Virus record (IMG/VR): IMGVR_UViG_3300010885_013353
Coordinates: 161 to 64,160 of that record
Length of the DNA stretch: 64,000 bases
Strand: one strand, 5' to 3'
From: a virus
Lineage: Duplodnaviria; Caudoviricetes
A program made the translations under genes and the position numbers. This document shows positions 1,926 to 63,747 of the stretch, one piece after another (within the stretch, counting starts at the first letter, position 1; the number at the start of each line of letters is the position of its first letter). The notes below the pieces were generated by a model. It did no database searches and was not told the DNA's origin. It saw only the letters and a list, made by a program, of their open reading frames with translations.

Positions 1926-2143
1926 TGAATGAGCCTTGGAGAAGCTTTACCGAAATCGATGACATCAAAGGTTTAAACGACAAGGAGCAGATCCAGTACT
2001 GGAAATACTCGTACCACAAAGCGTACGGAATGTTTGAAAACTGCGCCGAAAACACAATGGAGCAGGTTGATTTTTATCGCAATGCAATCAAGGAGTTGCG
2101 CAGACAGCTTCAAGAGGCACGGGAACATGTCAACGATAGATGA
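1922..2143 (+). CDS. Hypothetical protein
   Basis: Coupled ORF with AGGAG RBS. Confidence 0.55.
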   Translation: MMNEPWRSFTEIDDIKGLNDKEQIQYWKYSYHKAYGMFENCAENTMEQVDFYRNAIKELRRQLQEAREHVNDR

Positions 2144-2462
2144 AAGACGTTGGTTTGATGCGGTTCAGCAGATGGGCTGCATTGTCTGTTTAAACGAGGA
2201 GCGTGGTGTCTCACCTGCTGATATACACCACATCCACAAGAACGGTAATCGCAGGGTCAGTCACCTGCATACCATTCCTTTATGCCCATTGCACCACAGG
2301 TCAGGGCATAACACCCCAGACTACGTGTCGCGCCACCCTTGGAAGAGGGAATTCGAAAGGCGGTACGGCACGGAGTGGGATCTATACGAACAGGTCAAGC
2401 AAAGGATTATCGAGGCAAGCCCGCAATCCCTGCAACCTGATACCCCTGCTGAGCAACAGTAG
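2127..2462 (+). CDS. Ref-like (recombination enhancement) HNH nuclease
   Basis: GCIVC...ADIHH...SHLHTIPLCPLHHR...FERRYGTE pattern typical of the Ref family. Confidence 0.75.
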   Translation: MSTIDERRWFDAVQQMGCIVCLNEERGVSPADIHHIHKNGNRRVSHLHTIPLCPLHHRSGHNTPDYVSRHPWKREFERRYGTEWDLYEQVKQRIIEASPQSLQPDTPAEQQ

Positions 2463-5400
2463 CAAGGACACGCTGTAGCTCGTTAATCCTATCGCGACGT
2501 TCCTGCGGCGGTATATCTTTGCTCTTGTCGATGATGTTGATCGCTTGGTTGATCTTTGTCATCTCTTGGGCAAGCTTACGCAGGGTAGGAGCAGCCCCAA
2601 TCTGAGCTAACTTTTCCTTATCGGAAACCAAAGCTTGCAATTCCTCACCGCGACCCTCATTCTTGTAGCGTGTAAACAGGTTGGCGGTTTCGGTTGCGCT
2701 CTTCTCCAGATCGTAGAAATCAGAGATAGCCTTGTTCACCTGTGGATCAGTCAAGAACGACCGCATGAATGGCATGTTCTCGAAGTTCTTTGGTGTTTTG
2801 TCCTGACCAGTTCCTGCAAGAATCAAGGAGTCTGCAAGCTCTAGACCGAACGTACCCATCTCTGCGAACGTTCCCTTAAGGAAGACATCAATCTTGGCAG
2901 GCGACATTCCGATGTTATCCAATCCTGCCTTGCTCATCATCTTGGCAAACTCACTAGCCTTACGTCCACGCTCAGACACAGGCATGAGGGAATCGCCTAC
3001 GCCCTCAATGGCACGTCCGGTGTGGAAGGAATGGTTAGATATCACCTCGAGCGTTGGCTTGGCAAACTGTGGGATTGGCACACCGCCCGTGGGCATGTTC
3101 TGGATGAAGCCTGCCTTCAGAGATGCAAGCGCTTCCTTGCCTGTGCTTGTGCCTGACATGTAGCGCACAAGAACTTCAGGAATAGTCTTAAACAGGTAGC
3201 CAACTTCATAAGGAACAACCACGCGAACAAAGGTCTTGCCGTCCTTGTCTGAGAGCGGGAACAGCCAGTTGCCATCCTTTACGTAGTCAGGTAGCTTCTT
3301 GTAGTCATCATCGTCCTGCATCATTGCGGCGTAGGCCAATGACATTGCTATCATCATCGAGGCACGGGTAGCAAACATTCGCTGAGCCTTGGCTTTCTCT
3401 TCAGGGTTTAAACCGTATCCAGTTGCTGCGCGGTACAGCGTATCCAGACCAACGATGGTTGCGTTCAAGAACGGAATCATGTTGCGAGCGGCTGCGAGGA
3501 ATTGCGAGTTGCCAGTGATAGCAAAGTTGATCGACTCACGCGCCTTCATAACTGCATAGTCAACAGCCCTGCTTTCTGACATACCATCTGCCAGTGCCTT
3601 GGCCTTGGCTTTCTTAAAGATAGCCACGCGGGTAGCAGCGTCGGACGCTTCATGGATCTCAAGCAGCCTGTGTAAACCGCGTTGGATGACCCCGGGAGGG
3701 TTTTGCTTCTCTTTGCCCACGTCACCCAAGAACTCTTGCAGGCTGACTGTGCTGTCGAACTGACCAATCACGCCACGCGAGGCAAGGATTCTTGCTTCCT
3801 CTGAGTTGCGGGTAATGATTGTCAGGAACTCTTTAGCCGAATGGAACGGCGTAATAACCCCTGCCTGACCCGTGAGGGTAGCAGAGATAGGATCGCGGAT
3901 AAGCTGACGTATCCAGAACATTGGGTTAAGCAATGCACCTGCCCGCAAGACCTTGGTAAACCCACTAAATATCTGCATAATCGGACCCATCTGGTAGGTC
4001 ATCGATTGGAATGCGGCTAGGTCGTTAGGGTTTTCAATGATGACGTGTACATCCTTTCCGCCATCACGGTATCGGAGGTTTACACGGGGATCAGATTGAT
4101 TGGTAATTTCGGCAAGGTCAGGAGAAATACCGCGCATCTGCTCAACCGATACACGGCGTGTCTGGTTTTCATAGGCAGCGGCAATCATCGTGGCAAATTG
4201 CTTGTCGATGTTTTCCCAGATGTTGCGGGTGATGTCAGCGCCCTTCAGCTCTTTGATCTTGGCTGTGGTCTTGGCTCCAGTACCGGTGCGGAAGAAACCC
4301 TCTTCATTTAAATCTTCACGGGATTTAAACAGCGGAACATAGTTCTTCTGAGCGCGGTACTTGTCTGCAGTCTGCTTGTCAATTATGCCGACAGCTTCGT
4401 GCAGGTTAACCAACGAGGTGTTAACCGTCTTCCAAATGTCGAGGATCTCCTGCACTTCCGGAGTCATCTCAAGCTGTTTCTTTGCCCAAGCGATATCTTC
4501 AGGCTTGACCTGTAGCTCACGGTTTACCTTACGGTTCTCGTTGCCAAGCTTACGCAACTCATCGATAGCGTTTTGGAATTGCGCTACCTGCCTTGGAGTA
4601 ATCTTGCCTTCTTTCAGTTCTTTCTTTAGCTCGCCTGCAAGGAAGTTTGCATCGCTAATCTGCTGCTCACCTAAAGCACGGGTGGCTTTATCTTCTTCGA
4701 TAATGTCAGCACCACGCAAAGCGCGAGCGACTGTAGCCACGTAACCACGACCGCTTAGGCCAGACTCAACCACGTTCTTATTGCTGTTTAAATTGTCTGC
4801 AAGCTGCGCTGCCCGGGCTAGGTTGTTTTCACTTGCCTCGATGCCGATAGTGCCGTCATCGTTTAGGATTGGTGTACCAGTAACAAGACCACCCTTGATA
4901 AGGTTAATATTCTGAGCCTTGGCATGGTGCAGCATGTCTGCGCGTAGAACGCCATCGTTAAACAATGGTATCGGCTGAAGCGTCTTGCTTAGCCCTGCAT
5001 ATCGATCAACCAATGCAACGCGACCGCTAGTGCGAGAGCCATCATTACGCACCGCATTAAATGCGGAGGTTGCGGCATCAATCATTGCCTTGCCTGTAGA
5101 TGGATCATCATCTGCAAGCTTGGTGTACTGGTTTGGTGGTGCGTTCTTTAGCGAATACAGGATACGACCTGTCTCATCGTACGTTCCACGGTTACCAATT
5201 GCAGACTTGATCTGGTTTGGATTGTAGACAGCAAGGTTCTTATTGCCGCCTTCTATTACGTAAAAACCGTCAAAGCCAGCTCCTTTAATGGCTTCTTGAA
5301 TTTCAGGACTTTCAATGATTTGCCACGCTCCATTCTTGATTCTTTGTAAAAAATCAGCAGGTAAATTATTTTCTTTAAACGTGCCTGTTCGATTTAATTC

Positions 5401-8400
5401 CTGAACAAGTTTTGTATAGTTTTCTGAACTTTGAAAATCAAAAGGATTTTCTGCCCGAACATAAACAGGCATGATGTTTGGACCAACCTCAAGCTCTTTT
5501 TGAATTTGATCTTTAAAGAATTCAGCCAAGCCATTAAATTCAAGCTGGGTTGGATATTTATTGTTTTTAAAATCTTCATCCAAACGATTAAAAATCCGTT
5601 TAGCATATTCACTTGTAAGTGCTTTTTCTTTTACAGCAAGTCTTAATCCTTTCTTTAAAAATTTTATTTGACCAACGGGATCCATTTCGGCAAATTTTTT
5701 GCCTAACTGTTTAATCTGTTCATTGACCATGTATTGCACAGAGTCTTCTGAAAACGTTTCTGCAAACTCAGGATTCTCAGTGACAAAGATTGCACCGGCT
5801 TGTTTCGGAATGAACTCGTCAATGATGCGAGCAGTGCCGTGGTACATAACCTTCGGTGTACCGTCTGGTTTAACAATCTTGCTGTTGCCAAAGAAGCGTT
5901 TAAACTCTGGAGTCTTGGGTGCGCGGAGGGAGTAACTGATTTTGCCAGTATCTTTACCAAAAGAGCCAGTGTTAAATGTTGATTTAACTTGCTTGGAATC
6001 TAACGCAATGTAGCTGTCGCCACCACCTTCAAATTCATTTTTATAAACAATGCCGTCGTAACCTAGCTGCTTAAGAAAGACTTTAAGTAGGTTGCTACGC
6101 TCACCCGCAGCAAAGTCATTTACATCAGACCAAGATCGGTCAATGCTTTCTGGGCCGTAATCAGGACTGCCAGCTTCCGCTTTTAATCCCGCCCACTCTT
6201 CTATATCAAAACGGTCATTATAAAAATCATCAAGGTCTTGGCTGCTGATTCCTTCTATGCCCGTCTTGTCTGCCTTTTCCATGACGGCATTCATAATGTC
6301 GTCTACGCCCCATCTGCCTGAACGGTTTTCATCTAAGCGTAACGGGTTTTTAATGTTTGCATATAGGGGAATGATGTTTGCGCCAGACTGAGGAACACGG
6401 ACACCTCTTGACTTATCCTCTGCCTTTTTTATTTCAAGCCTATTCTCCGCAGACTCTTGCGTTCCAAAATGAACGCCAAACTGAAAGTATTCGTTCTCAC
6501 CAAAGTTTGTCGTGAACTGTGGAAAATCACTGTAGGTACTGTGATAAACAACTAACGGCTGACCCTTCTCATCGACAACCTTGCTGTCTTTGAAGAAGCG
6601 TTTAAACTCTGGTGTTGTAGGCGCACGGAGAGAAAACTTCTTGCCGCCATGAACTTCATCAACTGTGCCTTCGTAGTTAACAGGCACATCCTGATTCATG
6701 ACAACCATCATTCCAAAGTCAGGAATAGCGTAACCATCGTAACCGTTATCAACGATTAAGCTTTCAAACTTATTAGCGTCACCACCAGCCTCGCGGCTTA
6801 AACGCGTCATCGTTGCACCGGGGGCCAGAATATTATCTAGTTTCTGCGTGTAAACATAGCCACCAACGCCAGCCTCACGGTTTGGCATTGTGTTGTTTGA
6901 ACGTGGGATGTAGAAATACACACGACGCTTGATACGCTCATCGTCTGATTGCTCTAAGCGCCTTGCTTCCGCGCCGCGCAAGCCTTGACCGTATTTAGCG
7001 CCGTTTAAAGCCTCGACCTTAGCCTTGCCGTAGTGCGAACCCTGAAAGCTTACTGCGTCTTCTTTGACTGGGTTGAAGCTGATGCCTGCATCGCTGCTTG
7101 GGCTGGGTCGAAGGGCAGATTGGCTAGGTCCAAAGTCTCGGAGGCTGAATCTTGGTTCTGCCCCTGTTTTTTCGACTGCGTCTCGAGCCTTGCTGATAAA
7201 GGATTCACGGAGATTGTTGAGCCTCTTTTGTAGATAGGGTCGTTTGGCTCCGCTACTCTGAAGCCGTTTGAGGATAGCATCTCCAGCAGGGTCTTCTTGC
7301 CAGTCATGGTATGGGTACTCCGATTTAGCACCGAAGGATTTAGCATCTTCAATTGGTGCAAATTGATTAATGTCATCCCTTGCTTTAGCAAGAGCCGTAA
7401 TGAAGTCCGCGTCAGGCATTAGGAACGGATTACCATCGTCTCCGCGATAGTTTATCATCACTATCTCGTTCGGACCAACCTTTGAAAATCCTGCATCAGC
7501 GCCAAGATATTGGTTCATGACACCAAGGATTTTCTTTTGTACTGCCGGTGTCAATGACTTATCAAACCTTAACGAGATGCCGTATTGCTCTTTGTTTAAA
7601 AGGCTTGGGTCGGCCCGGAAGAACGGTGTTGCATCTTGTTTAAACACGTAGGACATGGCGTAAGCCAATTCTTGCGCTTCGCTTTCAGAAACAGCAAGGT
7701 TGTCGTTGATCAACTGAACTTTTAAATTTGGATTAACTTTGCCTTCGTATGCCCCGCTCTCTACCGTCACTCGAATACGGCTTTTGATGCCTAATGCGTT
7801 GGCAATGTCCGATACAGTGTTGGCTTTCTGAACTTCCTTGGTTAACTTTTCTTTGTCAGCAAAGGCAAGCTCTTCCATCTGCGACATTGTTGTTTTAACG
7901 GACGGAATAACTTCGCCAGTAATTGTCTGGGTTCGTGCGCGAATATCAGGTGATGGCTCACTTAACTCAGAAGTTATAGGAAGACTTGTAACTTTAGCTT
8001 TCATCAGGTGCGAATAATCAGTCACCGCACGTTCAAAAGCATACTCACGCAATTCTTTGTCGTTTAAATTCTTTTTAAGTCCACGATTACGGTAGTCCTC
8101 AAACATACCTTTTGCTTTTTGAGTAACCCACGAAGCAGCTTGCACCTGTCTTGGAGGCACATCCATCTTTGACGCAAGCAAGCGAACCATGTTTTCTGCA
8201 AGCTCATACTGTGCATCGGTTGGCTGATCTTTACCAAAAATCATTCTGGTCATATGCAGATCAATCGTTGAGCGACCAGTGTCTGTGCCTTCCATAGCTT
8301 CTAACAGGTTGGTATAAAACGTATTTGTTTTGCGACCATCCCAGTCAACGCCAAAATACAGTAATGCTTCAATTTTTTTGTTTGTGTCGCCCGTGCCAAC

Positions 8401-11400
8401 TTTAATAGGCTTGCCATTTGCAAACTGATTCCACGCATTAACGGTCTTTGTAAAGTTTGCAGAGACTTCGGTAGCCGCAGAGGTAATTGCAATAATTTGG
8501 AATAGCTTCTCTGCTAAAACTTTATCGCCATTAAATGCGTCCAAAATAGCTTTTGCGGATTGCTCATACCATTGACGACCTTGTAATCCTTTTGCGGTAA
8601 AGCTTTGGAGCTTTTTAATTGCTTTACGGACATCATCAACCGTTTGTTCGGAAGTCATTCCTGCAATACGACCACCAATTTTTTTGGTTAAGTCTTCAAT
8701 CTCTTTGTTGTAAACCCTGATCTTTTGCACACTCATGGGAGTGGGATCGCCAGACAGGCTAAAACGCGTTGAATATTTGGTGGCAAACTCTGGCAAGCCT
8801 TCTTTGCGAACACCTGCACGACCCGGCTGAACAGCACCACGCTCGATGTCGGCAAAAATACGGTTAGGCAAGAACATCTCGTCGATGCTTGTAAAACCTT
8901 TGCCGGTCAAAAAATTAGTCAACGCATCAAAGAACGCGTTTAAACGGCGCATCAGGTTAGCAATCATGCCTGATGGTGGTTTGGTCTCTGTGTAGAAGCG
9001 GAATGCCTGAGCAATAGCTTCTTCTTGCATGTATTCTGGGAATCCATCAAGGTTGCCGTTCTGTTCGAGATAGACACGCTGATAGCGATCCTGCATGTCC
9101 CTGTTAAAGAACTGATTGATCCATGTATCTTTAGCCGCCTTGGTAAGGACTTTCCATTCAGCGGGTGTAAACGCACCAAGCTCTTTTAGCGCGTGAATAA
9201 CCTCATGGCGCATCACACCCAGAGGATTGTCAGAGTCTAGCGCTAAGGTGATGACTTGCTTGGCATACATGCCGTCGGCTGTGCCGTTCTCAATAGAATC
9301 GACCAGACGCAGGCCAACCTTGCCCAAGCCAAACCGTTTGAGGATAGGCAATAGCTTCTTGCGCATGTCATCAACGGTCTCCTTGAGTTCAGGAGTGGCA
9401 TCGTTAGACAGGGAGTACTTAACTTTGTATTCGTTTTCAATGCGCTGTAATGCGTTAGGCATTGAGTCAGGATTATCAGCAACCATTTCTAGTATGCCGA
9501 AGTCGTTTGGTGTCATCCGCTCTTGAGCAAGCTTAACGGTCTTGATCTGCTGAGCGTCTCGGTTAACCGATGGTGTGCTAAGGGCAGCAATAACATCACG
9601 CGGACCGGGAGGTAGATTGCCAAACACGTTCTGCAACTCAGCCTGTCGTTGCTGATACTGCTCTTGTTGTTGCTGTTGAGCAACACGTTGTTCTGCTTCT
9701 GCCTGACGTTTTGCAAGGAAAGCTGTTGCCTGCTCGTCTTCAGCAAGCTGCTCCAGACCCATGCGACGTCGTTCTTCGTTTACACGCTGACGCTCTTCAA
9801 CTGCAGCGCGAGCTTGTGCTTCTGCAGCAGCTTCTTTTGCGGCAACCTGATTAGCTTGAGTGATAGTTTCTCGACGCGGACGCTCCAAATCAATGCCGGT
9901 AGCTTCAGTTAAACGCTGATCAACAGATTTAACAGGAGCAAGACCGTAATCGATTCGGTTGTATGGCTGACCCATGTTGGCTTGACGCAACGCTTCAGCT
10001 TCGTCTGGGCTTGCAACACCACCACGCTCTTCAATGTTTCTCATAATTCGAGAAAGCATTGCTTGGCGAGGCTGGTCTTGATTTAAACGCTGAGCTTCTG
10101 ATCCAGCCAATGCTGCGCCTTCAATGCGCTGTTGAGCTGCCGCAGGAGAGACGGTAGGGGTTTCAATCGGTGGGGCAACGTAAGGCTGTGCGGTAACGCG
10201 CTGTTCAATGGCAAACCTCCCACCCATCGTTGGGTGAGGAACGATTGACAGGCTGTTTGGATCTCCACCTGACAGCTCTACGTCGCTCTTCAGGACTGCA
10301 AGACGCTGACGCGCTTGGAGCGGAGGCATTGGATTGGGATCAACGATCACAGCACGAGGCTGTCCTCGCACCTGACCAGTTCCTCCCGCCACGTCAGCTT
10401 GCGTAGACAAACGCCGACGGTCAAACTCAAACGGTTCAGTTTGCATCTGACCAAGCAACGCAGACTGCTCATCAACGCGTTGACGCATCTGTTCAGCGTT
10501 TAAAGGCTGAGTTGGTGTGCGTGGGATGGTCTGGGAAGGCGTGATTACAGGAGCAGGAGTCTGCTGTTGAAACCTATTGCCATCAATTGATTGTTGCGCT
10601 GCAGCAGGGCTTGCAAAGGTTGGGGCGTATTCCTGCCGTGGAGCTGGCTCGTTTAAACCAAATTGTTGTGCAGCCAAAGCCTGAGCGCGTTCACGCTGAC
10701 CGGGCTGAATAGCTGCCTCACCTGCACCAAGTAGGTCTGCCTCAGTTAATCCTGCGCCACCCATAACACCAGTAGCTAGGTCAACACCCTGCTGCATTGG
10801 ATATTGTTGTGGAATAACTTGCGGAACAAATGCAGGAGCCTCTTCAATAGTCTCTTGTATGGGAACTTGTACAGATTCTTGTACAGGTCCGCGTGGAGGA
10901 GCAACAGGAGCAGCTTGTGGCCTAGAAAAAGCACCAACACCACCACCCATCACGCCGCCTGCCAAGCCTTCCATCGTCGCTGCACCAGCAACACCACGGA
11001 ATGTAGGAACATCAACGCCTTCGCGCTGCAATGCAATGTTCTGTGAGCCTTGTTCGGTGCCGCCTTGCAAACCTTCTGTCAGGAATTCTTGTCCGCCAGT
11101 AACACCGGCACGACCAAATGCACCGCGTTTTGCAAGGTTTTGAGTGATGTTTTTTGCAAACCCGGGGATCAACGCTTTTTCAATACCGGTTGACGCAGCC
11201 ACACCGCCAAGCAATGTGTTGGCAAGGATGAGATCTAGGTTCTTACCGCCGTATTCCTGTGCTTGAGTAGCAGCTTGTTCAATGACCTCTTTAGGCAATC
11301 CTGCCTTGGTAAGTTCTTCGGTAACTGCGTCGTAAATAGCGCTTTTACCAACGCCCGCGCCCATGACAGCGCCTGTACCAATGCCTGCAGCCCGTGCGCC

Positions 11401-45415: not shown

Positions 45416-45470
45416 TGACCATATCCGGATACAAAAGACCTGACCAGTTCTCTACAAAGGGTTTAAACGG

Positions 45471-46527: not shown

Positions 46528-46565
46528 CTAAAAAGGGACAAAACACAACAAAACAGTGAAAGCCC

Positions 46566-46595
46566 TTGTGATGTTTAAACACTATCGAATACACT
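46566..46595 (+). promoter_or_regulatory. Candidate early promoter TTGTGA-18-TACACT with GTTTAAAC in the spacer
   Basis: Upstream of the early operon. Confidence 0.4.
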
Positions 46596-46614
46596 GGAGG
46601 CTCAGTACAACAAG

Positions 46615-51292: not shown

Positions 51293-52099
51293 ATGAGGCT
51301 CGACAAAGCAAGCTGTGACCGCAAGTTCTTGCAGTATTACAACGATGTTCCGGTAGGCATGGGCGCGACACGAGCGCATCTCCTGCGCATTCTACGGTCG
51401 GTCGATCTGGTCGGTTGGTCTAGCCACGAAGAGTCAGGCAAGCTTGACCGCAAGGCACTGACCCGCTTTGCTACCGGATCAACCACAGTGTTTAAACGGC
51501 GTGACGTGAAAGAGGCTGACACGAGCGCGGTCTCTGTGCTGATCGATTGCAGTTCATCAATGAACGAAGACGGTCGAATACAGGTCGCGCATGGTGTAGC
51601 AATTCAACTGTCGCGCATCTTTGATAAGGCAGGCGTTAACTTTGCGGTGACCGGATTCAAGGGACACAGCACTGCCCAGTACGCACAGCAACGCGGCAAT
51701 GGTGTTGAGTACAGGACTGATGGCGAGGACACTAGGCTGATCCCGTTCAAGACATGGGGCGAGTCGATGCGCTCTGCCTCTTCCAAGCTTGGATCGATCA
51801 GCTATTGGGCAGGCTCAGCAACGCCCGACTATTCCGCTCTTATGCTATCCATCGAAGACCTTGCCAAACAGCGCGAGACGCGCAAGGTTTTGTTTGTGCT
51901 GACAGATGCGGACGGATTCATTCCTGAGCATATCAGGCACGTACAGAACGTTGCCAAACAGCAGGGCATCACCATTGTTGCGGTAGGTATTGGTTCGCAA
52001 GAGATCAAGCAGGTATTCGACAATGCCAGTGCGGCAAACGATCTGCGCGACTTAGGCTCAGCATCATTCAACACATTACTCAAAACACTCAGGAGGTAG
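51293..52099 (+). CDS. VWA-domain protein (CobT C-terminal-like)
   Basis: SGKLD, LIDCSSSM MIDAS, VLTD, AVGIG. Confidence 0.85.
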   Translation: MRLDKASCDRKFLQYYNDVPVGMGATRAHLLRILRSVDLVGWSSHEESGKLDRKALTRFATGSTTVFKRRDVKEADTSAVSVLIDCSSSMNEDGRIQVAHGVAIQLSRIFDKAGVNFAVTGFKGHSTAQYAQQRGNGVEYRTDGEDTRLIPFKTWGESMRSASSKLGSISYWAGSATPDYSALMLSIEDLAKQRETRKVLFVLTDADGFIPEHIRHVQNVAKQQGITIVAVGIGSQEIKQVFDNASAANDLRDLGSASFNTLLKTLRR

Positions 52100-53327: not shown

Positions 53328-53447
53328 CGCCCAAAGAAACCTGACCAGTTCTCTCTCCCTTGTCGTAGGGAACTCCCAGTCATGACTGTTTAAACGATGA
53401 ATCTCTGCCCGGGAGGACTCCCGCCCGGGCGGTCGGCATATGCTTGT

Positions 53448-53927
53448 TTAAACGCTGAGCAGTACGCTGGTGTCCATGTTTATGTAGGCGTTCGTTCGCG
53501 TGGCTGTTCCACCGTTTATTGTTGCTTGTGTGGTCGTGGAATCAATCCGGATAGACGGCACGTACAAACCATTGGCATCGACAAGCTCTTGCACCAACAG
53601 AACATCGGACTGCTTGAGGTACAAGAACCCAACGACTTTGACGCACAACGACTTAGCGATTGACCTTGCCCGCTCAAGCTTGTCGAACGTCACCAACCAT
53701 TCATTGCTGTATGACTGTTTAAACTTCATAAGGTCACAGTCGTACCTGCACTTGGTTTCCACTATCGCCTTGATGCAATTATCCAAAACAAGAAACGCAT
53801 CAACGTCCGCAGGACGATCCTTCGGGGTCTCAATGTACCTGTACTTCGGGTAGGAGATTAGGAATATCTCCTTTGCCCTCTGTTCGTCAGGCAACGTGGT
53901 TTGCCCCCTCGGCGAAAGAATATCCAT
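53448..53927 (-). CDS. PD-(D/E)XK nuclease-like protein
   Basis: DVDA...IVETKCR. Confidence 0.6.
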   Translation of the reverse strand: MDILSPRGQTTLPDEQRAKEIFLISYPKYRYIETPKDRPADVDAFLVLDNCIKAIVETKCRYDCDLMKFKQSYSNEWLVTFDKLERARSIAKSLCVKVVGFLYLKQSDVLLVQELVDANGLYVPSIRIDSTTTQATINGGTATRTNAYINMDTSVLLSV

Positions 53928-54203: not shown

Positions 54204-54423
54204 TTCGTTTCTCGATTAAAGATTTATCCATGATGCTACCAACCCAATACCCTGCAGGATTTTTAAGCATCTTCTTGTCCAACATTTCCTGAGCGTTTAA
54301 ACAGCGTCTGTCTACGCCGAAGACGCCGGTTCGGTGTTTCTCAAATGCGTAGTTCGAGTTGAAGTATTCCCTGCACGCACCGCACTGATTCCTACTGCTT
54401 CCAAGTTTCATTTCAAGCCTCAT
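54172..54423 (-). CDS. FDXHR-type zinc-binding protein
   Basis: CGAC..YF....AFEKHR.G....RRC. Confidence 0.7.
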   Translation of the reverse strand: MRLEMKLGSSRNQCGACREYFNSNYAFEKHRTGVFGVDRRCLNAQEMLDKKMLKNPAGYWVGSIMDKSLIEKRNAIREQEETV

Positions 54424-54424: not shown

Positions 54425-55378
54425 TTAACGTTTAAACACGTAAGTTCCACTGTCCATCAGATCCAGTGGTCTAGCCCTGCTGTCCGATAGATACTGCTTA
54501 CAGCTTGGGTTGTACCACAGGGGTACGCGCCCTTCCCATTCCCCGTGGCGGTTCTTGTCAATTGACAGGATGGCATCGGGCATTGACTGCGCTTCTTTGT
54601 CATCGGGATTCTTCTCTACGGTACGCTCCTTGTGCTTGTTGCGGTAAACGATGATCACTTGGTCGGCAAGGTCGGTCATCGCCCCCGATCCCGCGAGGTC
54701 GAACTTGTTGGGTATCTTCTGCTCGTTCTCTTGTTTGCGGATGTGATGCACAAGGTGAACATGGACGTTGTATTGTTGGGCAAGTTGGGTGATCTGGTTA
54801 ACGAAATCCTTCTGGGCGTTGTAATCATCCACGCCCTTGACGCACTTCATGAGCGAGTCAATGATCACGTGCTTGAGTCCTTTGGATGCGGCATAGCGGA
54901 TCGCGCCGTAGATTATCCTCGTCTCGATATTGCCTTGGTGATTGAACACGTACCCCGCGCACAGCATAAAGTCCATGAACTTGTTCAGGATCATATCGGT
55001 AGGCTGATCATTCATACAAGCCTGTATCGCCATCCGTTTTAAGGTAGCCAAGGGCTTCATCTCAAGGGAAATGTTTAGCACTCCCTCGCCCTGCGCGATC
55101 CATCCAAGGCTCACCATGCCAAGCAGTTGCGACTTGCCATGACCGTTGATCCCTGCCCAGATGGTCGTTTCACCTGTCCGGAAACGGATGTTGAAATGCG
55201 TTGATCCCCAAGGAAGTTTCGCACCCGTCACTTGGTCGGGGCTTTTAAAGCTATCGATAAGCTCGTCCCTGAACGTACTGCCATCGTATACCTTGGCTTG
55301 AACCTCATCGTCCACTGTGTAGGGGATGATGCTATCGCCGTTGATAATTTGAAGAGCTAAACTTTCGTAGTCTCTCAT
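54425..55378 (-). CDS. DnaB/Twinkle-like SF4 helicase
   Basis: GINGHGKS, ISLEM, IIDSL, HLVHH, GSG...D, KNR.G. Confidence 0.85.
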   Translation of the reverse strand: MRDYESLALQIINGDSIIPYTVDDEVQAKVYDGSTFRDELIDSFKSPDQVTGAKLPWGSTHFNIRFRTGETTIWAGINGHGKSQLLGMVSLGWIAQGEGVLNISLEMKPLATLKRMAIQACMNDQPTDMILNKFMDFMLCAGYVFNHQGNIETRIIYGAIRYAASKGLKHVIIDSLMKCVKGVDDYNAQKDFVNQITQLAQQYNVHVHLVHHIRKQENEQKIPNKFDLAGSGAMTDLADQVIIVYRNKHKERTVEKNPDDKEAQSMPDAILSIDKNRHGEWEGRVPLWYNPSCKQYLSDSRARPLDLMDSGTYVFKR

Positions 55379-55695
55379 TGTTTACACCTTATGATTTCCA
55401 TTTCGCAGCCGTCGTCCCAGCAAAGCACAGACGGTTTAAACGTCAATACACGCTCAGCAAATGATCGGACGCGCTCGCTGTTTGCGCCTACGATATGCAC
55501 TTGAAGATCACGCAAGGCATTAAAAGATAGTTTGGCAGGGTCATCAGTTGAGTCAACAAACATAACGTTAACTGGAAACTTCTTCATGACCTCGCCTTTC
55601 TTGATCCGGTATGGCATAGCGTCAACGTAAAAGAACACCTTGTTTAAACGCTCACCCTTCTTTGCTGCTGTCAAAATATCGTTGTAGCCTTGCAT
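55375..55695 (-). CDS. Hypothetical protein in the replication module
   Basis: Coupled between initiator and helicase. Confidence 0.55.
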   Translation of the reverse strand: MQGYNDILTAAKKGERLNKVFFYVDAMPYRIKKGEVMKKFPVNVMFVDSTDDPAKLSFNALRDLQVHIVGANSERVRSFAERVLTFKPSVLCWDDGCEMEIIRCKQ

Positions 55696-58412: not shown

Positions 58413-58436
58413 TTGTTTTCCATATACGGAGGCTTA

Positions 58437-59336
58437 ATGAAGATCACCAATAAATTCGGGTTACCGCAACCCTTTGTAGACCTTGCAACCAAGAGCGCAT
58501 ACAGCAAGGGACGCGCTGACTATTCTGTCACAGAAATCATTTCCCCGCCAAGAATCCAACGCTTACGTATCAAGCATTGGGAAGACATGGAGCAAGACGT
58601 AAGCGACATGACTTGGTCTTTGATGGGGACGATGGCACACAATCTGCTTGAGAAGAAAACTACCAATGGATTGCAGGCAGAGGAACGCCTGTATGTAGAG
58701 ATTGATGGTGTTGTCCTATCGGGCGCAATGGATTTGCAGGAAGAGGTCGATGGCAGTATCAAGATCACTGACTACAAATTTACAAGCGCGTGGGCGTTGC
58801 GCGAAGACAAGATCGAGTGGATATTGCAACAGAACATCTACGCATGGATGGTAGGCAAGATCAAGGGCAAGAAAGTATCATCGATCAGCATCTGTGCTTT
58901 TATCCGCGATTGGAGTCGCCGCGAGGCTGCTACAAACCCGAGTTACCCACAGGCTAGTGCGCAGGTATTACCGATTGCGTTAATGGATTCTAGCGATGTA
59001 GAGAAATACATCAAGGAGCGGATCGAGTTGCACCGTCAGGCGAGGGTTGATGCTGACTGGGACAACGAACTGATCCACTGCACAGACGAGGAGCGTTGGT
59101 CAAGGGAGACCAAGTACGCGATCAAGAAGGAAGGCAGGAAGTCGGCGGTGCGTGTACTCGACACACATGATGAGGCGATGGCATTGCTTGCTGAGATGCC
59201 AGAAAAAGATGTTGCCTCTGCCAAAGTGTTTATTGAAATCCGCAAGGGTGAGTCGGTGCGTTGCACTGGCAACTTCTGCGGTGTAGCAAAGTGGTGTTCA
59301 CAGTTCAACAAGGAGCAAGAAAATGAGCGTGTTTAA
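58437..59336 (+). CDS. PD-(D/E)XK exonuclease (Cas4/RecB-like)
   Basis: SVT....PP, GT..H..LE, SG..D, DYK, Q.N.Y, C-terminal Cys cluster. Confidence 0.8.
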   Translation: MKITNKFGLPQPFVDLATKSAYSKGRADYSVTEIISPPRIQRLRIKHWEDMEQDVSDMTWSLMGTMAHNLLEKKTTNGLQAEERLYVEIDGVVLSGAMDLQEEVDGSIKITDYKFTSAWALREDKIEWILQQNIYAWMVGKIKGKKVSSISICAFIRDWSRREAATNPSYPQASAQVLPIALMDSSDVEKYIKERIELHRQARVDADWDNELIHCTDEERWSRETKYAIKKEGRKSAVRVLDTHDEAMALLAEMPEKDVASAKVFIEIRKGESVRCTGNFCGVAKWCSQFNKEQENERV

Positions 59337-59943
59337 ACAGCTTCAGAAGGCGAGGACAATGTTTCTGTCCTCCGACATCAAGAAGTCCGGCAAGAACAAG
59401 TTTGCAGGTTACGAGTACTTCGAGCTTGGTGACTTTATTCCTGCCATCCACAAGATCTTTAACGAGGTCGGGCTGTGTGGCGTGGTGCGGTTTACCAATG
59501 ACACTGCATCTCTGACGGTCTACGGTGACGAGGGTAGCATCGATTTCACAAGCCCGATGGTGTTTGCTGAAAACAGCAAGGGTCAGGCAATACAGAATTT
59601 AGGTAGTACTCATACGTACATGCGCCGTTATCTTTGGCTCATGGCGATGGAGATTGTGGAACATGATTCCGTGGATGCCGCCGCGCCTGCAGAAACCCCT
59701 GCCAAACCGATTGTAAAAGCCGTGGCAAAACCAGTGGAAAAGACGGTCGGTGCAACAGAGGATCAAAAGTTGTTTGTGGATAAGCTTATTGAGTGGGCGG
59801 CAGAGCAAGATTCACAGAAAGAATTGGTCGGTGCTTGGAAATCTAACCAAAAACAGATCGATGCATTAAAGAGTTCAGACCCCGCTCTATTTGAGCATTT
59901 AAAAACCTGCTTTACAGAAATGAAAGCAAACATCAAGGAGTAG
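59323..59943 (+). CDS. ERF-family single-strand annealing protein
   Basis: KSG.NKF..Y.YFEL.D; Q.LGS..TY.RRY. Confidence 0.85.
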   Translation: MSVFKQLQKARTMFLSSDIKKSGKNKFAGYEYFELGDFIPAIHKIFNEVGLCGVVRFTNDTASLTVYGDEGSIDFTSPMVFAENSKGQAIQNLGSTHTYMRRYLWLMAMEIVEHDSVDAAAPAETPAKPIVKAVAKPVEKTVGATEDQKLFVDKLIEWAAEQDSQKELVGAWKSNQKQIDALKSSDPALFEHLKTCFTEMKANIKE

Positions 59944-59945: not shown

Positions 59946-60227
59946 ATGGCTTACGAACCAAAACCAAATACCGGTAGTTTATTTTCCAACAAGGAAAAGA
60001 AAAGTCCACAGTCACCAGACTATCAGGGCGATATCTTGATCGACGCTTCAAAGCTCGAGATCGTTAACGGCGTTGCCAAGATCAAGATTGCCGGATGGAA
60101 AAAGACAGCAGCAAGTGGTCTTGTGTACCTATCATTATCGGTAGATACGTTTAAACCTAAAGATACACCAGACCCCCGTCGAAATTCAGCGTCTATTACA
60201 GACCTGAAAGATGATATACCCTTCTAA
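59946..60227 (+). CDS. SSB-like protein
   Basis: G.LF.N..K....PDY.G, AGW, LSLS, acidic DDIPF tail. Confidence 0.7.
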   Translation: MAYEPKPNTGSLFSNKEKKSPQSPDYQGDILIDASKLEIVNGVAKIKIAGWKKTAASGLVYLSLSVDTFKPKDTPDPRRNSASITDLKDDIPF

Positions 60228-60648: not shown

Positions 60649-61360
60649 AGTTCCTGTCAAGGCGGTAATGATTTACATGCCGGTTAACGAAGCTGAACGC
60701 ATGAAGAAGTTTGCAGATGATCGCGCAATCTCTTCATCCAAGGTTGCTCGCGAAGGTATTTACATGCGCATGGATCGGGACGGTGACAAGTTTGAGCAGG
60801 GTTTCAATGAAGGTTTAAACACTGCAATAGCTGTTGTCAGGGAAACCAAAGGCGCACAGATGATGTTCCCGTCTGGCAAGTCATTCGCTCAGTTGGTATG
60901 CGATGGGCTTGAGCCACTGATCCGTCCGGTGAAACATGAATGACGAAGACCTAAGAGATTTCTTTGCCGCGTTTGCAATGATATCCAAGGCATGGATTCC
61001 TCCTAATCTAGAAGACCATGCCAAGAACTGTTACGCAATAGCAGACGCAATGATTGCCGAGAGGAACCGATTACCCGAAGAAGGTATAGCAAGCGTAGTA
61101 AAGAAACGTAGGAAACCCAACCCAAAAGAGGCTTAATCATGGAATGTAAAGTCAAGATCGGCTCAGCGTATGAACCTAAGTGGTTTGAACGCAGGTACAC
61201 ACAAGGCACGTACTCAGCCAAGAATATTCCTCCGTGCGTAGAAACAGCTTGGTTGCAACATGCAATGCTAGGCGGAACGTTTAAACGAAGAGTGTCTCGC
61301 TGGCAGGTGTTGTTCTTTACCGTCTCTGCTGCAGTATTGTTTTTAATTGCTTATTACTAG
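60617..61360 (+). CDS. Three small ORFs (60617-60943 possible RHH; 60936-61136 LRDFFA family; 61139-61360 C-terminal TM)
   Basis: Coupled ORFs from the ORF track. Confidence 0.5.
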
Positions 61361-61982: not shown

Positions 61983-62003
61983 ATTTAAACAATCGGAGGC
62001 TAA

Positions 62004-63747
62004 ATGAACGACAGAAACTTTGCGTCAATACTACGCACGCTAGAGCTTGGTGACATGATGACGCACGAAGAGATGAGTACAGTCGCAAGGATGTTAAGAG
62101 GCTACAAAGCTGACGCAGAGCGCTACCGTTGGTTGAACCAAGCCACGCATCAACTGTTCATGGTCACAGAGCATGGTTTAAACGAGCAGGTCGATCGGGC
62201 TATGAACGGGGGGCGGGAATGAAAACAATTATTCACGTCAACCAACACGCTGTGCGCTCCAACGTCAAGCATGGTACGAACGAGCCAGTGCTGACGGTCA
62301 AGACATACAAGAGCAATACCTACGCCCATGAGATCAAGATTCATGGTGAATCAACGATTGTGTATTCCCCTGAGAAGCCTTTGTCTTGCGGCGCTCGGGT
62401 GTGGATAGAAACGCAAGCTAATGTGGAGATACTGAAATGAAACACAAACTCGCAGAACTAATACACGCATGGGCTGACGGGGCGCAGATTCAGGTTTATT
62501 GCAACGATGGCATTTGGGAAGATGTTGACTATCCAGCTTGGGGGGGTGGGATTGAATACCGCATCAAGCCTGAGCCTAAGCCTGATGTTGTACGAAATAT
62601 TACCGTTGAAGCAACATTAAAGTGTGGCGAAACGTGTGGTGAAGCATTTGTACAAGTTTTTAAGTCAGGAAAATATATTTTTCCCAATTTACGCCTGACC
62701 TTTGACGGCGAAACAGGCAAGCTGAAATCGGCGGAGGTTATATGAACGAACGAGATTCTGAATTTAAATTGTGGTGGGATGACGAGGACGAAGAGTTCCG
62801 TGACGAGCTACGCAAGAAGGATGCTAAGCATGTGTGGGATGCAGCGTTTAAAGCAGGTGGCGCACGACCTTGGTGGTCAATCACACGAGAGCAATGGGCT
62901 GTGCTGAACAAGAAGCTTGGGGGTGGGAAATGATTACTTTTTTAACAGCGTTTGCATTGTCCCAATACGATGCAAGCCCTTTTTGGTGGGCTGCCTTTTG
63001 GTTAGTGATAGCGTTTGAAATTTATAGGAGCCTAGAAAAATGATGGATTTTTACCCCCACCCAACAGATCCAAATTTAGTAATTTTAAAAACAACACCAC
63101 GATACATAGCCAAGCACTCTGACGAAGACCTACGGGCGGCGGTACTTGCTGAGCGTGAGGCGTGTGCGAAGTTGTGTGAGGACGAACACAAGATACGATT
63201 GGCAGAAATCAGAGCAAGGGGAAACACATGAGCATCGAAGCAATGAAGCAATGGGCTGTACTAAACAAAAAACTTGGAGGTGGAAAATGAGCAAACCAAT
63301 GACAAAAGTTGATCTCGACAACGCTATTGAAGAAATAAACGAAACGGCGGCTAAAAAAATACTGGAGCTTGAGCGAGTAGACAAAGTTGTACAAACTGCG
63401 GTACTGGCTGAGCGTGAGGCTATTGCAAAAATGTTTGAAGCAAAAATATGGGCGTATGAAAAAAGAGAAATTGTCGCAGCAATCAGAACAAGGGGTGAGA
63501 AATGAACGAACGAATTAAAGAGCTTGCTGTGCAAGCGGGGATGCACTACAGAGCATTAAGTGATGAATTTTGCGAGGCTGACACAGATGGCGTACCTTTT
63601 GAAATGATGGAACGCTTTGCCGAGCTAGTCGATGCCGCTGCGGTGGCGAGAGAGCGTGAACGATTGAAAGCGTTGAAGCCTGTGGTTTGGCAGCATCTTG
63701 CAGGGCGCAACATACCATTTTACGCACTAGACGAGGTGACGAAATGA
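62004..63747 (+). CDS. Array of small accessory ORFs (62004-62222, 62219-62440, 62437-62745, 62742-62933, 63040-63231, 63228-63290, 63287-63505, 63502-63747)
   Basis: ATGA-coupled ORFs with DAERYRW, IHVNQH, I.AWADG and AEREACA motifs. Confidence 0.6.

What the first reader, a model, noticed from the sequence alone, without database searches (positions are those of the whole stretch)
1971..62183. Palindrome GTTTAAAC occurs at least 36 times, unevenly: a possible genome-marking system
Seen: exact copies found by eye at 1971, 2188, 3406, 5898, 6600, 7638, 8938, 10651, 13993, 14837, 15919, 29562, 32932, 39783, 43528, 45155, 45461, 46144, 46323, 46482, 46573, 48883, 50773, 51490, 53388, 53446, 53717, 54295, 54430, 55434, 55642, 59331, 60149, 60813, 61279 and 62176. 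A base-composition null predicts roughly 1-2. Copies lie in coding DNA in several frames (FK, LN, V-stop) and in intergenic DNA. They cluster at 45.1-46.6 kb (6) and 53.4-55.6 kb (7). I found none in the ~13.6-kb tail/lysis block (15.9-29.5 kb). Established: phages usually avoid palindromes; HIP1, Chi and DUS show that such enrichment can mark a functional site. Inference: a binding or modification site for a phage or host protein (self-recognition, DNA organisation, regulation). No methyltransferase is visible in the window.
Basis: partly seen in the sequence, partly recalled or inferred. Interest (0 to 1): 0.85.

Follow-up and report, generated by a model that had tools for sequence, protein, structure and literature searches.

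The report
Phage DNA word read by SprT-like protein
This phage keeps 36 copies of the eight-letter palindrome GTTTAAAC under selection, and the word travels across unrelated phages with the zinc-ribbon tail of one small SprT-like protein, so it is probably that protein's undescribed docking site.

Summary
All 36 GTTTAAAC sites are at the stated coordinates, against 1.7 expected. A codon-preserving shuffle gives 3.7 coding sites against 28 observed. 28 of the 47 protein contexts that allow the word carry it.

The window is a complete 64-kb environmental phage. It is not a host-driven HIP1-like signal. Five TerL relatives without the gene have 0-3 sites.

The word, or GTGTAAAC, tracks a SprT-like gene (phrog_6361; window 48310-48888) whose C-terminal ribbon carries KKQ[S/T/G]TRxLK:
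- 12 of 12 named phages with this signature are enriched. Their hosts are Actinobacteria and Alpha-, Beta- and Gammaproteobacteria.
- 5 of 5 homologues without it have 0-1 sites, including three that share a host strain with two enriched phages.
- In a reverse test, 16 of 47 viral contigs found only through paired words encode the family, against 0 of 50 for a control palindrome.

The densest arrays go with protease-dead or ribbon-only proteins. Binding, not proteolysis, therefore looks like the core function.

Sites are conserved at orthologous positions, and two sit in promoter spacers. Binding itself is inferred, not shown.

This scan reached the same link before on other DNA: 30 notes in at least 27 genomes. 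My searches found no paper on it.

The parts
48310..48888 (+). SprT-like gene (192 aa from ATG). It has an N-terminal HELCH metalloprotease domain and a C-terminal Cys ribbon preceded by KKTQSTRMLK. It is the proposed reader of the word. Its stop codon lies inside the site at 48883.
   Evidence: phrog_6361, E 2.3e-37, full length. PF10263 scores 15.1 bits, below the cut-off of 25.6. Sequence. AF2 model pLDDT 85.3. Top Foldseek hit is abylysin 4jiu, E 6.2e-3, prob 0.99.
45142..45170 (-). Sigma-70-like promoter TTGACT-17-GAGAAT with GTTTAAAC (45155-45162) in the spacer. It lies upstream of ORF 44840-45094 and the LexA-DBD ORF.
   Evidence: site; 22 of 25 aligned relatives keep the word
46135..46163 (-). 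Sigma-70-like promoter TTGACA-17-GATCAT (10 of 12) with GTTTAAAC (46144-46151) in the spacer. It lies upstream of the small terminase gene.
   Evidence: 8 of 8 aligned relatives keep the word
46564..46603 (+). Possible promoter TTGTGA-18-TACACT around the site at 46573, before the early operon. Seen by eye only; the scan tool did not list it.
   Evidence: sequence; not listed; 6 of 6 aligned relatives keep the word
1971..1978 (.). GTTTAAAC site, intergenic
2188..2195 (.). GTTTAAAC site, in ORF 2034-2462
3406..3413 (.). GTTTAAAC site, in the 3154-aa ORF
5898..5905 (.). GTTTAAAC site, in the 3154-aa ORF (internal repeat with 6600)
6600..6607 (.). GTTTAAAC site, in the 3154-aa ORF
7638..7645 (.). 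GTTTAAAC site, in the 3154-aa ORF
8938..8945 (.). GTTTAAAC site, in the 3154-aa ORF
10651..10658 (.). GTTTAAAC site, in the 3154-aa ORF
13993..14000 (.). GTTTAAAC site, in ORF 13600-14712 (ejection-protein-like)
14837..14844 (.). GTTTAAAC site, in ORF 14709-15116
15919..15926 (.). GTTTAAAC site, in ORF 15113-16630
29562..29569 (.). GTTTAAAC site. By eye it sits at a minus-strand gene start (AAGGAG..ATG TTT AAA C).
32932..32939 (.). GTTTAAAC site, near the 3' end of ORF 32911-35544
39783..39790 (.). GTTTAAAC site, in ORF 39073-40014; kept in 15 of 26 aligned relatives
43528..43535 (.). GTTTAAAC site, in the large terminase gene; kept in 23 of 132 aligned relatives
45461..45468 (.). GTTTAAAC site, intergenic, just past the small terminase stop. 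Kept in 9 of 14 aligned relatives; the other 5 read GTGTAAAC or GTTTACAC.
46323..46330 (.). GTTTAAAC site in copy 1 of the 133-nt direct repeat
46482..46489 (.). GTTTAAAC site in copy 2 of the 133-nt direct repeat
50773..50780 (.). GTTTAAAC site, in ORF 50286-51290; kept in 34 of 44 aligned relatives
51490..51497 (.). GTTTAAAC site, in the CobT/VWA-like ORF
53388..53395 (.). GTTTAAAC site, intergenic
53446..53453 (.). GTTTAAAC site overlapping the stop of ORF 53448-53927
53717..53724 (.). GTTTAAAC site, in ORF 53448-53927
54295..54302 (.). GTTTAAAC site, in ORF 54172-54450
54430..54437 (.). GTTTAAAC site at the junction of the DnaB-like helicase ORF end and the next ORF start
55434..55441 (.). 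GTTTAAAC site, in ORF 55375-55701
55642..55649 (.). GTTTAAAC site, in ORF 55375-55701
59331..59338 (.). GTTTAAAC site overlapping the stop of ORF 58413-59336 and the start of ORF 59323-59943
60149..60156 (.). GTTTAAAC site, in ORF 59946-60227
60813..60820 (.). GTTTAAAC site, in ORF 60596-60943
61279..61286 (.). GTTTAAAC site, in ORF 61139-61360
62176..62183 (.). GTTTAAAC site, in ORF 62129-62440

Best explanation
GTTTAAAC, more exactly YGT[T/G]TAAACR, is the cognate DNA site of the phage's own SprT-like protein (window 48310-48888).

Y-x-V/A-R ... P-x-C-P). Because the site is a palindrome, the domain probably binds as a dimer.

Selection writes the word wherever it is cheap:
- in non-coding spacers;
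- across stop codons (GTT TAA AC);
- at gene starts;
- in most F-K and L-N codon pairs that allow it.

The protein is thereby tethered at dozens of fixed positions on the phage chromosome.

I think the most likely primary effect, at about 0.4 given binding, is control of phage transcription. This would act through promoter occlusion at the sites inside -35/-10 spacers, with the intragenic sites possibly acting as roadblocks. Where the HExxH domain is intact, it would add local proteolysis of a DNA-bound protein.

Shown here: the enrichment, selection at the DNA level, the conservation of sites, and the two-way co-occurrence of word and ribbon signature. Inferred: the physical binding, the dimer, and the regulatory effect.
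For: (1) Selection at the DNA level.
- 36 sites against 1.7 expected; 28 coding sites against 3.7; 28 of 47 permissive contexts filled.

(2) The gene.
- The ORF matches phrog_6361 at E 2.3e-37.
- tblastn finds homologues in 157 phage records.
- It is the only window ORF with blastp homologues in all 5 unrelated phages first fetched. Those five were chosen for having it.

(3) Forward test on named phages: 12 of 12 proteins with Q[S/T/G]TR[ML]xK go with an array.
- Window: 36.
- Venkman: 34 against 1.71 expected.
- Mica: 7 against 0.09.
- Arya: 7 against 1.0.
- VroomVroom: 18 GTGTAAAC.
- Gretchen: 14 GTGTAAAC plus 2 GTTTAAAC.
- JackieB: 41 plus 1.
- 4A: 13 plus 1.
- R5C: 17.
- Mano: 4.
- Floof: 16 plus 1.
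- Percival: 14 plus 2.
- Sources; signatures.

(4) Homologues without the signature: 5 of 5 have 0-1 sites.
- Dismas 0, Skylord 0, BAjuniper 0, Epa5 0, CN1 1.
- Dismas, Skylord and BAjuniper infect the same M. foliorum strain as Floof and Percival.

(5) Family controls.
- The five nearest named TerL relatives (47-59% identity) have 3, 1, 0, 2 and 0 sites.
- None has a convincing phrog_6361 match; the best is E 0.0048.

(6) IMG/VR loci.
- The word is the top palindromic 8-mer in 17 of 17 loci carrying close relatives of the gene, and the top 8-mer of all in 78 of 80 loci found through the signature.

(7) Reverse test.
- Of 47 viral records found only through GTTTAAAC-N20-50-GTTTAAAC, 16 encode phrog_6361 at E <= 1e-5.
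- Of 50 records found through the control palindrome CAAATTTG, 0 do.
- Among the first 50 loci, 14 of 21 with at least 5 copies are positive, against 2 of 26 with fewer.
- The signature regex hits 15 of 80 loci against 0 of 80 controls.

(8) The ribbon, not the protease.
- 8 of the 15 signature ORFs lack HExxH.
- Two of them are ribbon-only ORFs: 55 and 58 aa from the start codon, listed as 60 and 61 aa stop to stop.
- Three more, read in full, are full-length forms with HExxH replaced.
- Six of these eight have 1.6-3.3 sites per kb, and they include the five densest of the 15; L246 has 0.7 and the HExxH-bearing L268 has 3.1.

(9) Sites are conserved.
- 142 of 291 aligned instances keep the exact word, against 12.6% for other 8-mers in the same alignments.

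(10) Position.
- Two predicted promoters hold the word in a 17-nt spacer.
- 19 of 36 sites lie within 100 bp of an ORF boundary, against 11.6 expected (P 0.008).
- A site lies at most about 80 bp upstream of the SprT-like gene in Mica, Arya, Mano, VroomVroom, Gretchen, JackieB and Floof.

(11) Residue and base.
- QGTR loci show GTGTAAAC:GTTTAAAC at 0.33, against 0.15 in Q[ST]TR loci (Fisher 1.8e-6, not corrected for phylogeny).
Against: - No binding experiment exists and none can be run here.
- The co-occurrence counts are not corrected for phylogeny. The 80-locus sets are mostly one freshwater clade, and the six GTGTAAAC phages include at least five related actinophages (phage 4A's host is unrecorded).
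- The simple rule 'S/T reads T, G reads G' fails. 25 of 26 QGTR loci in IMG/VR still have GTTTAAAC as their top word.
- 7 of 21 word-dense records show no phrog_6361 match. One of them is rated 100% complete (G038, 20.5 kb, 7 sites); the other six are rated 9-31% complete.
- In this window no site lies directly upstream of the gene. Only 4 of 80 clade relatives have one within 100 bp.
- Pfam's SprT-like model scores below its cut-off and the Zn_ribbon_SprT model finds nothing.
- The ribbon fold matches only generic zinc ribbons, Z <= 3.4.
- The promoters are consensus matches, 3 found against 2.5 expected in shuffles.
- A regulatory role does not obviously explain the near-regular spacing in JackieB and Gretchen, nor the 6 sites inside one giant late gene.
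Confidence: 0.72

Rival explanations
1. Host-driven iterated palindrome, like HIP1. The host's repair bias, methyltransferase or another host factor enriches the word in host and phage alike.
For: HIP1 in cyanobacteria and their phages is a precedent (recalled, not read here). The host of this phage is unknown, so its genome could not be counted.
Against: - The same word or its one-base variant is enriched in phages of Arthrobacter, Microbacterium, Streptomyces, Dinoroseobacter, Methylophilales, Burkholderia, Achromobacter and Enterobacter.
- Phages of one host strain, M. foliorum NRRL B-24224, split by ribbon signature: 17 and 16 sites against 0, 0 and 0.
- TerL relatives without the gene have 0-3 sites.
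- No methyltransferase of three Pfam families is found in the genome.
Confidence: 0.03
2. Another phage protein reads the word. The SprT-like gene merely travels with it, or acts on that reader, for example as a protease that cleaves a repressor bound there.
For: - The window encodes other DNA binders: a LexA-DBD 76-aa ORF beside a word-bearing promoter, a small terminase, and an HNH-AP2 endonuclease.
- Cluster AZ phages keep a sigma-like HTH protein next to the SprT-like gene (passages of 10.1101/2025.05.26.655371).
- IrrE, a protease that acts on a repressor, is the second Foldseek hit (E 0.09).
Against: - No other window ORF has blastp homologues in more than 2 of the 5 unrelated word-bearing phages.
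- The word follows the C-terminal signature even where the protease motif or the whole protease domain is missing.
- The word is lost in homologues that keep the protease but lack the signature.
Confidence: 0.1
3. The word is an address for a DNA-tethered protease. It places a Spartan/ArdC-like metalloprotease on the phage's own DNA so that it can cut host proteins that bind or track along it. Proteolysis is the point; gene control is not.
For: - HELCH is intact here and in 7 of the 15 signature ORFs.
- The fold resembles minigluzincins, Wss1 and SPRTN.
- The homologue in Bordetella phage CN1 is annotated as an antirestriction protein.
- Near-regular spacing in JackieB (CV 0.56, P < 0.0002) and Gretchen (CV 0.42, P 0.0002) fits coverage of the whole chromosome.
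Against: - Most of the densest arrays occur with proteins that have lost HExxH or the whole protease domain. The array keeps its value without proteolysis in cis.
- No substrate is known.
Confidence: 0.25
4. RNA-level element. GUUUAAAC in the mRNA leader acts on translation initiation or RNA processing.
For: In Venkman and in IMG/VR locus L217, several sites sit exactly between a Shine-Dalgarno sequence and ATG. Three window sites overlap stop codons.
Against: - The asymmetric variant occurs on both strands relative to transcription: JackieB 22 and 19, Gretchen 7 and 7.
- Most window sites are deep inside ORFs in two frames.
- Sites lie in promoter spacers.
- A palindrome suggests a duplex-binding dimer.
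Confidence: 0.04

Closest known systems
Stoperators and operators of Cluster A mycobacteriophages (L5 gp71 / Bxb1 gp69 type repressors). PMC9283540 and PMC6550527: search listing and abstract starts seen; details recalled.
   Same: - A phage-encoded DNA-binding protein has one short cognate word.
- The word is scattered in many copies over the phage genome, in intergenic and coding DNA.
- It includes sites at promoters.
   Different: - Stoperators are asymmetric 13-14-bp sites read by a monomeric HTH immunity repressor, are orientation-biased, and are confined to one cluster of temperate actinophages (recalled).
- Here the site is an 8-10-bp palindrome.
- The candidate reader is a zinc-ribbon tail on a metalloprotease-like protein.
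- The pair occurs in lytic-looking and temperate phages of at least four bacterial classes.
- Repression has not been shown.
SprT / Spartan (SPRTN) / Wss1 DNA-dependent metalloproteases (PDB 6mdw, 5ln5, 5jig; PMC5127644, listing only)
   Same: - HExxH minigluzincin-like protease domain followed by a small zinc-binding DNA-binding module.
- These structures appear among the Foldseek hits.
- SEA-PHAGES annotators already call the homologues 'SprT-like protease'.
   Different: - The known members bind DNA without sequence specificity and clear DNA-protein crosslinks (recalled).
- No cognate word or dispersed site array is described for them.
- Pfam PF10263 scores below its cut-off and PF17283 is not matched here.
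HIP1 (GCGATCGC) of cyanobacteria
   Same: An 8-bp palindrome is over-represented many-fold, is written into coding DNA in several frames, and is conserved.
   Different: - HIP1 is a host-genome property linked to orphan methyltransferases (recalled).
- Here the word is a property of the phage, follows a phage gene across hosts, and no methyltransferase is present.
ArdC-type antirestriction proteins (DNA-binding domain plus metalloprotease domain)
   Same: A mobile-element protein joins a DNA-binding module to a SprT/Wss1-like protease. One homologue (CN1) carries that annotation.
   Different: - ArdC binds single-stranded DNA non-specifically (recalled).
- The CN1-type homologue lacks the ribbon signature, and its genome lacks the word.

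Membership tests
PHROG phrog_6361 (phage 'SprT-like protease' family) | Full-length profile match | tested here: met
   E 2.3e-37, 129.7 bits, residues 3-184 on profile positions 6-196 of 203
Pfam SprT-like (PF10263) | Score at or above the curated cut-off (25.6 bits) | tested here: not met
   15.1 bits, E 8.6e-4 in the six-frame search. No Pfam family at E <= 0.01 in hmmscan.
Pfam SprT-like (PF10263) | HExxH zinc-binding catalytic motif | tested here: met
   HELCH at residues 83-87; invariant in 24 of 24 aligned relatives
Pfam Zn_ribbon_SprT (PF17283) | Profile match to the C-terminal ribbon | tested here: not met
   No match at E <= 1. The ribbon here has its own signature.
Minigluzincin / Wss1 / SPRTN protease fold | Structural similarity of the N-terminal domain | tested here: inconclusive
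   Foldseek: 4jiu at E 6.2e-3, prob 0.99; 6mdw at E 0.24; 5ln5 at E 0.66. No hit at E <= 0.001.
Stoperator-type dispersed repressor sites | Many copies of one cognate word, in coding and non-coding DNA, some at promoters | tested here: met
Stoperator-type dispersed repressor sites | Asymmetric site with orientation bias relative to transcription, read by an HTH immunity repressor | tested here: not met
   The site is a palindrome. The asymmetric variant is on both strands (22/19 in JackieB, 7/7 in Gretchen). The candidate reader is a zinc-ribbon protein.
Stoperator-type dispersed repressor sites | Binding blocks transcription | not testable with these tools
   Needs EMSA, ChIP and RNA-seq
HIP1-like host iterated palindrome | Enrichment is a property of the host genome and goes with a cognate methyltransferase | tested here: not met
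   Same-host phages split by ribbon signature. No methyltransferase of PF01555, PF00145 or PF02086. The host genome itself is not available.

The most novel reading that the evidence does not exclude
An address-guided protease system. A short DNA word written all over a phage chromosome recruits a Spartan-like metalloprotease to the phage's own DNA. There it removes host proteins that bind or track along that DNA, such as silencers, restriction motors or crosslinked enzymes. Protease-dead and ribbon-only descendants have been re-used as pure site blockers. This would be the first sequence-addressed DNA-dependent protease. It would also be a self-DNA recognition principle shared by phages of Actinobacteria and Proteobacteria.
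Probability: 0.25. Interest if true: 0.9.

Novelty: new variant of a known kind. Interest (0 to 1): 0.75.

Why it matters
A gene annotated in hundreds of phage genomes as 'SprT-like protease' has no known function. If the link holds, the gene gains a testable DNA target.

A striking genome signature also gains an explanation. The signature is an exact 8-bp palindrome kept in up to 3 copies per kb, in phages from soil actinobacteria to marine and freshwater proteobacteria.

The link predicts a widespread phage control or self-recognition module:
- The read-out is simple, because the word is a PmeI site and the protein has 192 aa.
- There are natural controls: same-host phages with and without the ribbon signature, and protease-dead and ribbon-only forms.
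- Cultured models exist: Microbacterium, Arthrobacter and Streptomyces SEA-PHAGES, Dinoroseobacter phage R5C, and Methylophilales phage Venkman.

It also gives annotators a rule. The ribbon signature KKQ[S/T/G]TRxLK predicts the word array, and the array predicts the signature.

Tried and rejected
- **Maximal-order Markov expectation.** It gives 26.2 for the word. I rejected it as a null because the 7-mers it conditions on are themselves made by the sites.
- **megablast of 20 kb against named phages.** No match. The phage has no close named relative.
- **Methyltransferase search.** PF01555, PF00145 and PF02086 give nothing at E <= 1. Other methyltransferase families were not searched.
- **One-to-one rule between the residue after Q (S/T or G) and base 3 of the word (T or G).** It holds in 12 of 12 named phages but fails in IMG/VR. 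There, 25 of 26 QGTR loci have GTTTAAAC on top. Only a shift in the ratio remains.
- **Autoregulation as a general feature.** Only 4 of 80 clade relatives have a site within 100 bp upstream of the gene. 27 of 80 have one across its stop codon.
- **Homodimer prediction** (complex prediction, two copies). The answer was 'no answer' (score 0.08, mark 0.42). It is not evidence either way.
- **Fold search of the ribbon-only model.** Only generic zinc-ribbon or rubredoxin-like matches, Z <= 3.4. No DNA-binding relative was identified.
- **Rfam at gathering threshold on the whole window.** 0 families.
- **Literature.** I ran five searches:
  - 'GTTTAAAC' + 'palindrome' + 'phage';
  - 'GTTTAAAC' + 'overrepresented' + 'motif' + 'bacteriophage';
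  - 'GTTTAAAC' + 'SprT';
  - 'GTGTAAAC' + 'phage';
  - 'SprT-like protease' + 'phage'.

  None returned a paper linking the word to the protein. [quoted passage not shown] Supplements were not seen and might list repeats.
- **Not done.**
  - No phylogeny-corrected association test.
  - No count in any host genome.
  - Cluster FP Arthrobacter phages were not fetched. They are said to lack the gene but keep the neighbouring HTH protein.

Full report
**What the window is.** The window is 64,000 of the 64,160 bases of one virus record with direct terminal repeats, rated complete. It has no close named relative. Its large terminase is 47-59% identical to those of seawater phage 023Pt_psg01, Pelagibacter phages HTVC027P and HTVC023P, lake phage DSL-LC04 and the freshwater cyanophages MinM2 and Pag-Yong1. 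IMG/VR holds a large clade of closer relatives. 316 stretches encode a relative of this terminase, and the best 80 are at least 79% identical. The host is unknown.

**The observation.** Dinucleotide shuffles give 1.70 +/- 1.18 (max 6). The word is the top-scoring 8-mer of all 8-mers in the window (36 against 1.78 under an order-2 Markov model).

Shuffling synonymous codons within each of 87 ORFs leaves 3.74 +/- 1.85 sites (max 12 of 1000) where 28 are observed. There are 47 places where the protein sequence allows the word by codon choice alone: x-F-K-[LPHQR] and [CRSG]-L-N. 28 of them carry it. TTT-AAA is used in 36 of 63 F-K pairs, and TTA-AAC in 29 of 85 L-N pairs.

Eight sites are intergenic, although only 5.5% of the window is. 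Three overlap stop codons as GTT-TAA-AC.

The flanks are otherwise unrelated. Position -1 is Y in 28 of 36 sites and +8 is R in 28 of 36, so the site is a 10-bp palindrome, YGTTTAAACR.

The distribution is uneven (gap CV 1.44, P 0.006). The 13.6-kb empty stretch is unlikely by chance (P 0.0059). It also has only 3 permissive contexts, against 15 in the first 16 kb. Lack of opportunity and lack of selection cannot be separated there.

**Finding the partner.** After six calls I looked at this scan's earlier notes. They tie the same word in other phages to a small SprT-like zinc-ribbon protein. I treated this as a lead and tested it.

The window has such a gene at 48310-48888. It encodes 192 aa with HELCH and a C-terminal Cys-rich tail. 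It matches phrog_6361 at E 2.3e-37. It scores under the Pfam SprT-like cut-off and does not match Zn_ribbon_SprT. Its stop codon is inside the site at 48883.

An AlphaFold2 model from 24 sequences has pLDDT 85.3 and pTM 0.82. Its best Foldseek matches are the minigluzincin abylysin (4jiu, E 6.2e-3, prob 0.99), IrrE, selecase, SPRTN (6mdw) and Wss1. None reaches E <= 0.001. [quoted passage not shown]

**Forward test.** tblastn finds the protein in 157 named phage records. I examined 16 of them. I chose them for diversity of host and of match length, not at random.

Unbiased 8-mer ranking puts GTTTAAAC first in three phages:
- Methylophilales phage Venkman: 34 against 1.71.
- Burkholderia phage Mica: 7 against 0.09.
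- Enterobacter phage Arya: 7 against 1.0.

It puts the one-base variant GTGTAAAC first in four:
- Streptomyces phage JackieB: 41 against 0.05.
- Phage 4A: 13.
- Arthrobacter phage VroomVroom: 18.
- Microbacterium phage Gretchen: 14.

Pattern counts add four more:
- Dinoroseobacter phage R5C: 17.
- Achromobacter phage Mano: 4.
- Microbacterium phage Floof: 17.
- Microbacterium phage Percival: 16.

Five homologue-bearing phages have no array: Dismas 0, Skylord 0, BAjuniper 0, Pseudomonas phage Epa5 0 and Bordetella phage CN1 1.

**The ribbon signature.** The alignment explains the split. All twelve array-bearing proteins share K-K-Q-[S/T/G]-T-R-[M/L]-x-K just before the first Cys, and an Arg in the next strand (..Y-x-V/A-R..). 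The five others have different residues there (SRSGKSIK...VVS, or no Cys at all).

Across 12 ribbon sequences, Q, T, R, K, C, R, P and C are invariant.

Dismas, Skylord and BAjuniper infect the same Microbacterium foliorum strain as Floof and Percival. Host effects therefore cannot explain the difference.

The five nearest named relatives by terminase lack a convincing phrog_6361 match. They have 3, 1, 0, 2 and 0 sites in 57-65 kb.

**Larger samples.**
- The word is the top palindromic 8-mer in 17 of 17 IMG/VR loci with close relatives of the gene.
- The word is the top 8-mer of all in 78 of 80 loci found through the signature peptide.
- It is the top palindrome in 71 of 80 terminase-relative loci, and 79 of 80 have at least one copy.

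These sets are largely one clade and are not independent.

**Reverse test.** I scanned IMG/VR for two words 20-50 bases apart, with no reference to any gene. Of the first 50 loci, 47 records could be searched, and 16 encode phrog_6361 at E <= 1e-5. Most of these records are fragments.

The same procedure with the control palindrome CAAATTTG gives 0 of 50.

Within the first set, 14 of 21 loci with at least 5 words are positive, against 2 of 26 with fewer.

A regular expression for the signature hits 15 of all 80 word-pair loci and 0 of 80 control loci.

**Protease or ribbon.** Eight of those 15 signature ORFs have no HExxH.
- Two are ribbon-only proteins: 55 and 58 aa from the start codon, listed as 60 and 61 aa stop to stop.
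- Three that I read in full keep the N-terminal domain, but the HExxH helix is replaced.
- Six of their eight contigs carry 1.6-3.3 sites per kb and include the five densest arrays among the 15 signature loci; L246 has 0.7 per kb, and the HExxH-bearing locus L268 has 3.1. Two examples are 37 sites in 12.4 kb and 24 in 7.3 kb.

The word therefore follows the ribbon and does not need proteolysis in cis. I did not find this point in the earlier notes.

The ribbon-only model (pLDDT 78.4) resembles only generic zinc ribbons (Z <= 3.4).

**What the sites look like.** They are conserved in place. In alignments under 95% identity, 142 of 291 instances keep the exact word. Other 8-mers of the same alignments are kept in 12.6% of cases (10,757 of 85,244). 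At 45461, the non-identical relatives read GTGTAAAC or GTTTACAC.

Two of the three sigma-70-like promoters predicted in 44.6-47.0 kb hold the word inside a 17-nt spacer. They lie before the small terminase gene and before the operon that leads to the large terminase. The scan as a whole is at shuffle level, 3 against 2.5. By eye, two Gretchen sites sit the same way (TTGCGC-17-TATAGT).

19 of 36 sites lie within 100 bp of an ORF boundary, against 11.6 expected (P 0.008).

In seven named phages a site lies at most about 80 bp upstream of the SprT-like gene. In this clade that is rare (4 of 80), and a site across the gene's stop codon is common (27 of 80).

In Venkman and in locus L217, several sites fill the spacer between the Shine-Dalgarno sequence and ATG. 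I read this as use of unconstrained DNA.

Spacing differs between phages. It is clustered here and in Venkman. It is more even than random in JackieB (CV 0.56), Gretchen (0.42) and R5C (0.61).

**Reading.** The best-supported statement is that YGT[T/G]TAAACR is the cognate site of the ribbon domain of this protein family. This rests on co-occurrence in both directions, a signature that predicts presence or absence, same-host controls and site conservation. Binding has not been observed.

For function I favour control of phage transcription from many operator-like sites. The protease would be an accessory that some lineages have dropped. A sequence-addressed protease acting on DNA-bound host proteins remains a live and more novel alternative.

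A host-driven palindrome, a modification mark and an RNA element are each poorly supported.

**Novelty.** Dispersed cognate sites of a phage regulator are known: the stoperators (PMC9283540, abstract start seen). SprT-like proteases are known and annotated. The pairing of a sequence word with this protein family is not in the papers I could search. This scan has reached the same link before on other DNA, with 30 notes in at least 27 genomes.

Noticed in passing
window 46190-46240: Four DnaA-box-like TTATCCACA words in one orientation. They lie between the word-bearing promoter of the small terminase gene and the 133-nt repeats. This is a possible DnaA-assisted origin.
   Followed up: no
window 46248-46380 and 46407-46539: A 133-nt direct repeat in two copies (79% identity, 159-nt period), with no convincing ORF. 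Each copy has a GTTTAAAC at its centre, flanked by short inverted repeats.
   Followed up: partly
window 44620-44850 (-): A 76-aa ORF that is only a LexA-type DNA-binding domain (PF01726, E 7.8e-13). It lies directly upstream of the large terminase gene and downstream of a word-bearing promoter.
   Followed up: no
window 48907-52099 (+): Directly after the SprT-like gene come a CobS/MoxR-like AAA+ ATPase (phrog_249) and a CobT/VWA protein (PF11775, PF00092).
   Followed up: no
window 47999-48048: Another first-stage note reports a hammerhead ribozyme here. A whole-window Rfam scan at gathering threshold returned 0 families. I did not run the more permissive E-value mode.
   Followed up: partly
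Pseudomonas phage Epa5 (L122-L125) and Bordetella phage CN1 (L126-L128): These phages carry a signature-less homologue and lack GTTTAAAC. They are instead strongly enriched for CCCTGGGC / CCTGGGCG: 57 against 5.6 in Epa5 and 44 against 8.4 in CN1.
   Followed up: no
Streptomyces phage JackieB (L129-L131), Microbacterium phage Gretchen (L006): The sites are spaced more evenly than random (gap CV 0.56 and 0.42; P <= 0.0002). This is unlike the clustered pattern in this window.
   Followed up: partly
Gretchen L006 30-37 and 101-108; Percival and Floof at 30 and about 100: Two sites sit at the extreme left end of these linear genomes, just before the small terminase gene. This echoes the word-bearing small terminase promoter of this window.
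   Followed up: no
window 56342-56902 (-): An HNH endonuclease with an AP2-like DNA-binding domain (PF13392, E 1.4e-15; PF00847 below its cut-off) lies in the replication module.
   Followed up: no
IMG/VR record G038 (locus L250): A 20.5-kb record rated complete, with 7 GTTTAAAC in the 11.9 kb held (29% GC), but no phrog_6361 match. It is either a chance case in AT-rich DNA or an array with a different reader.
   Followed up: no
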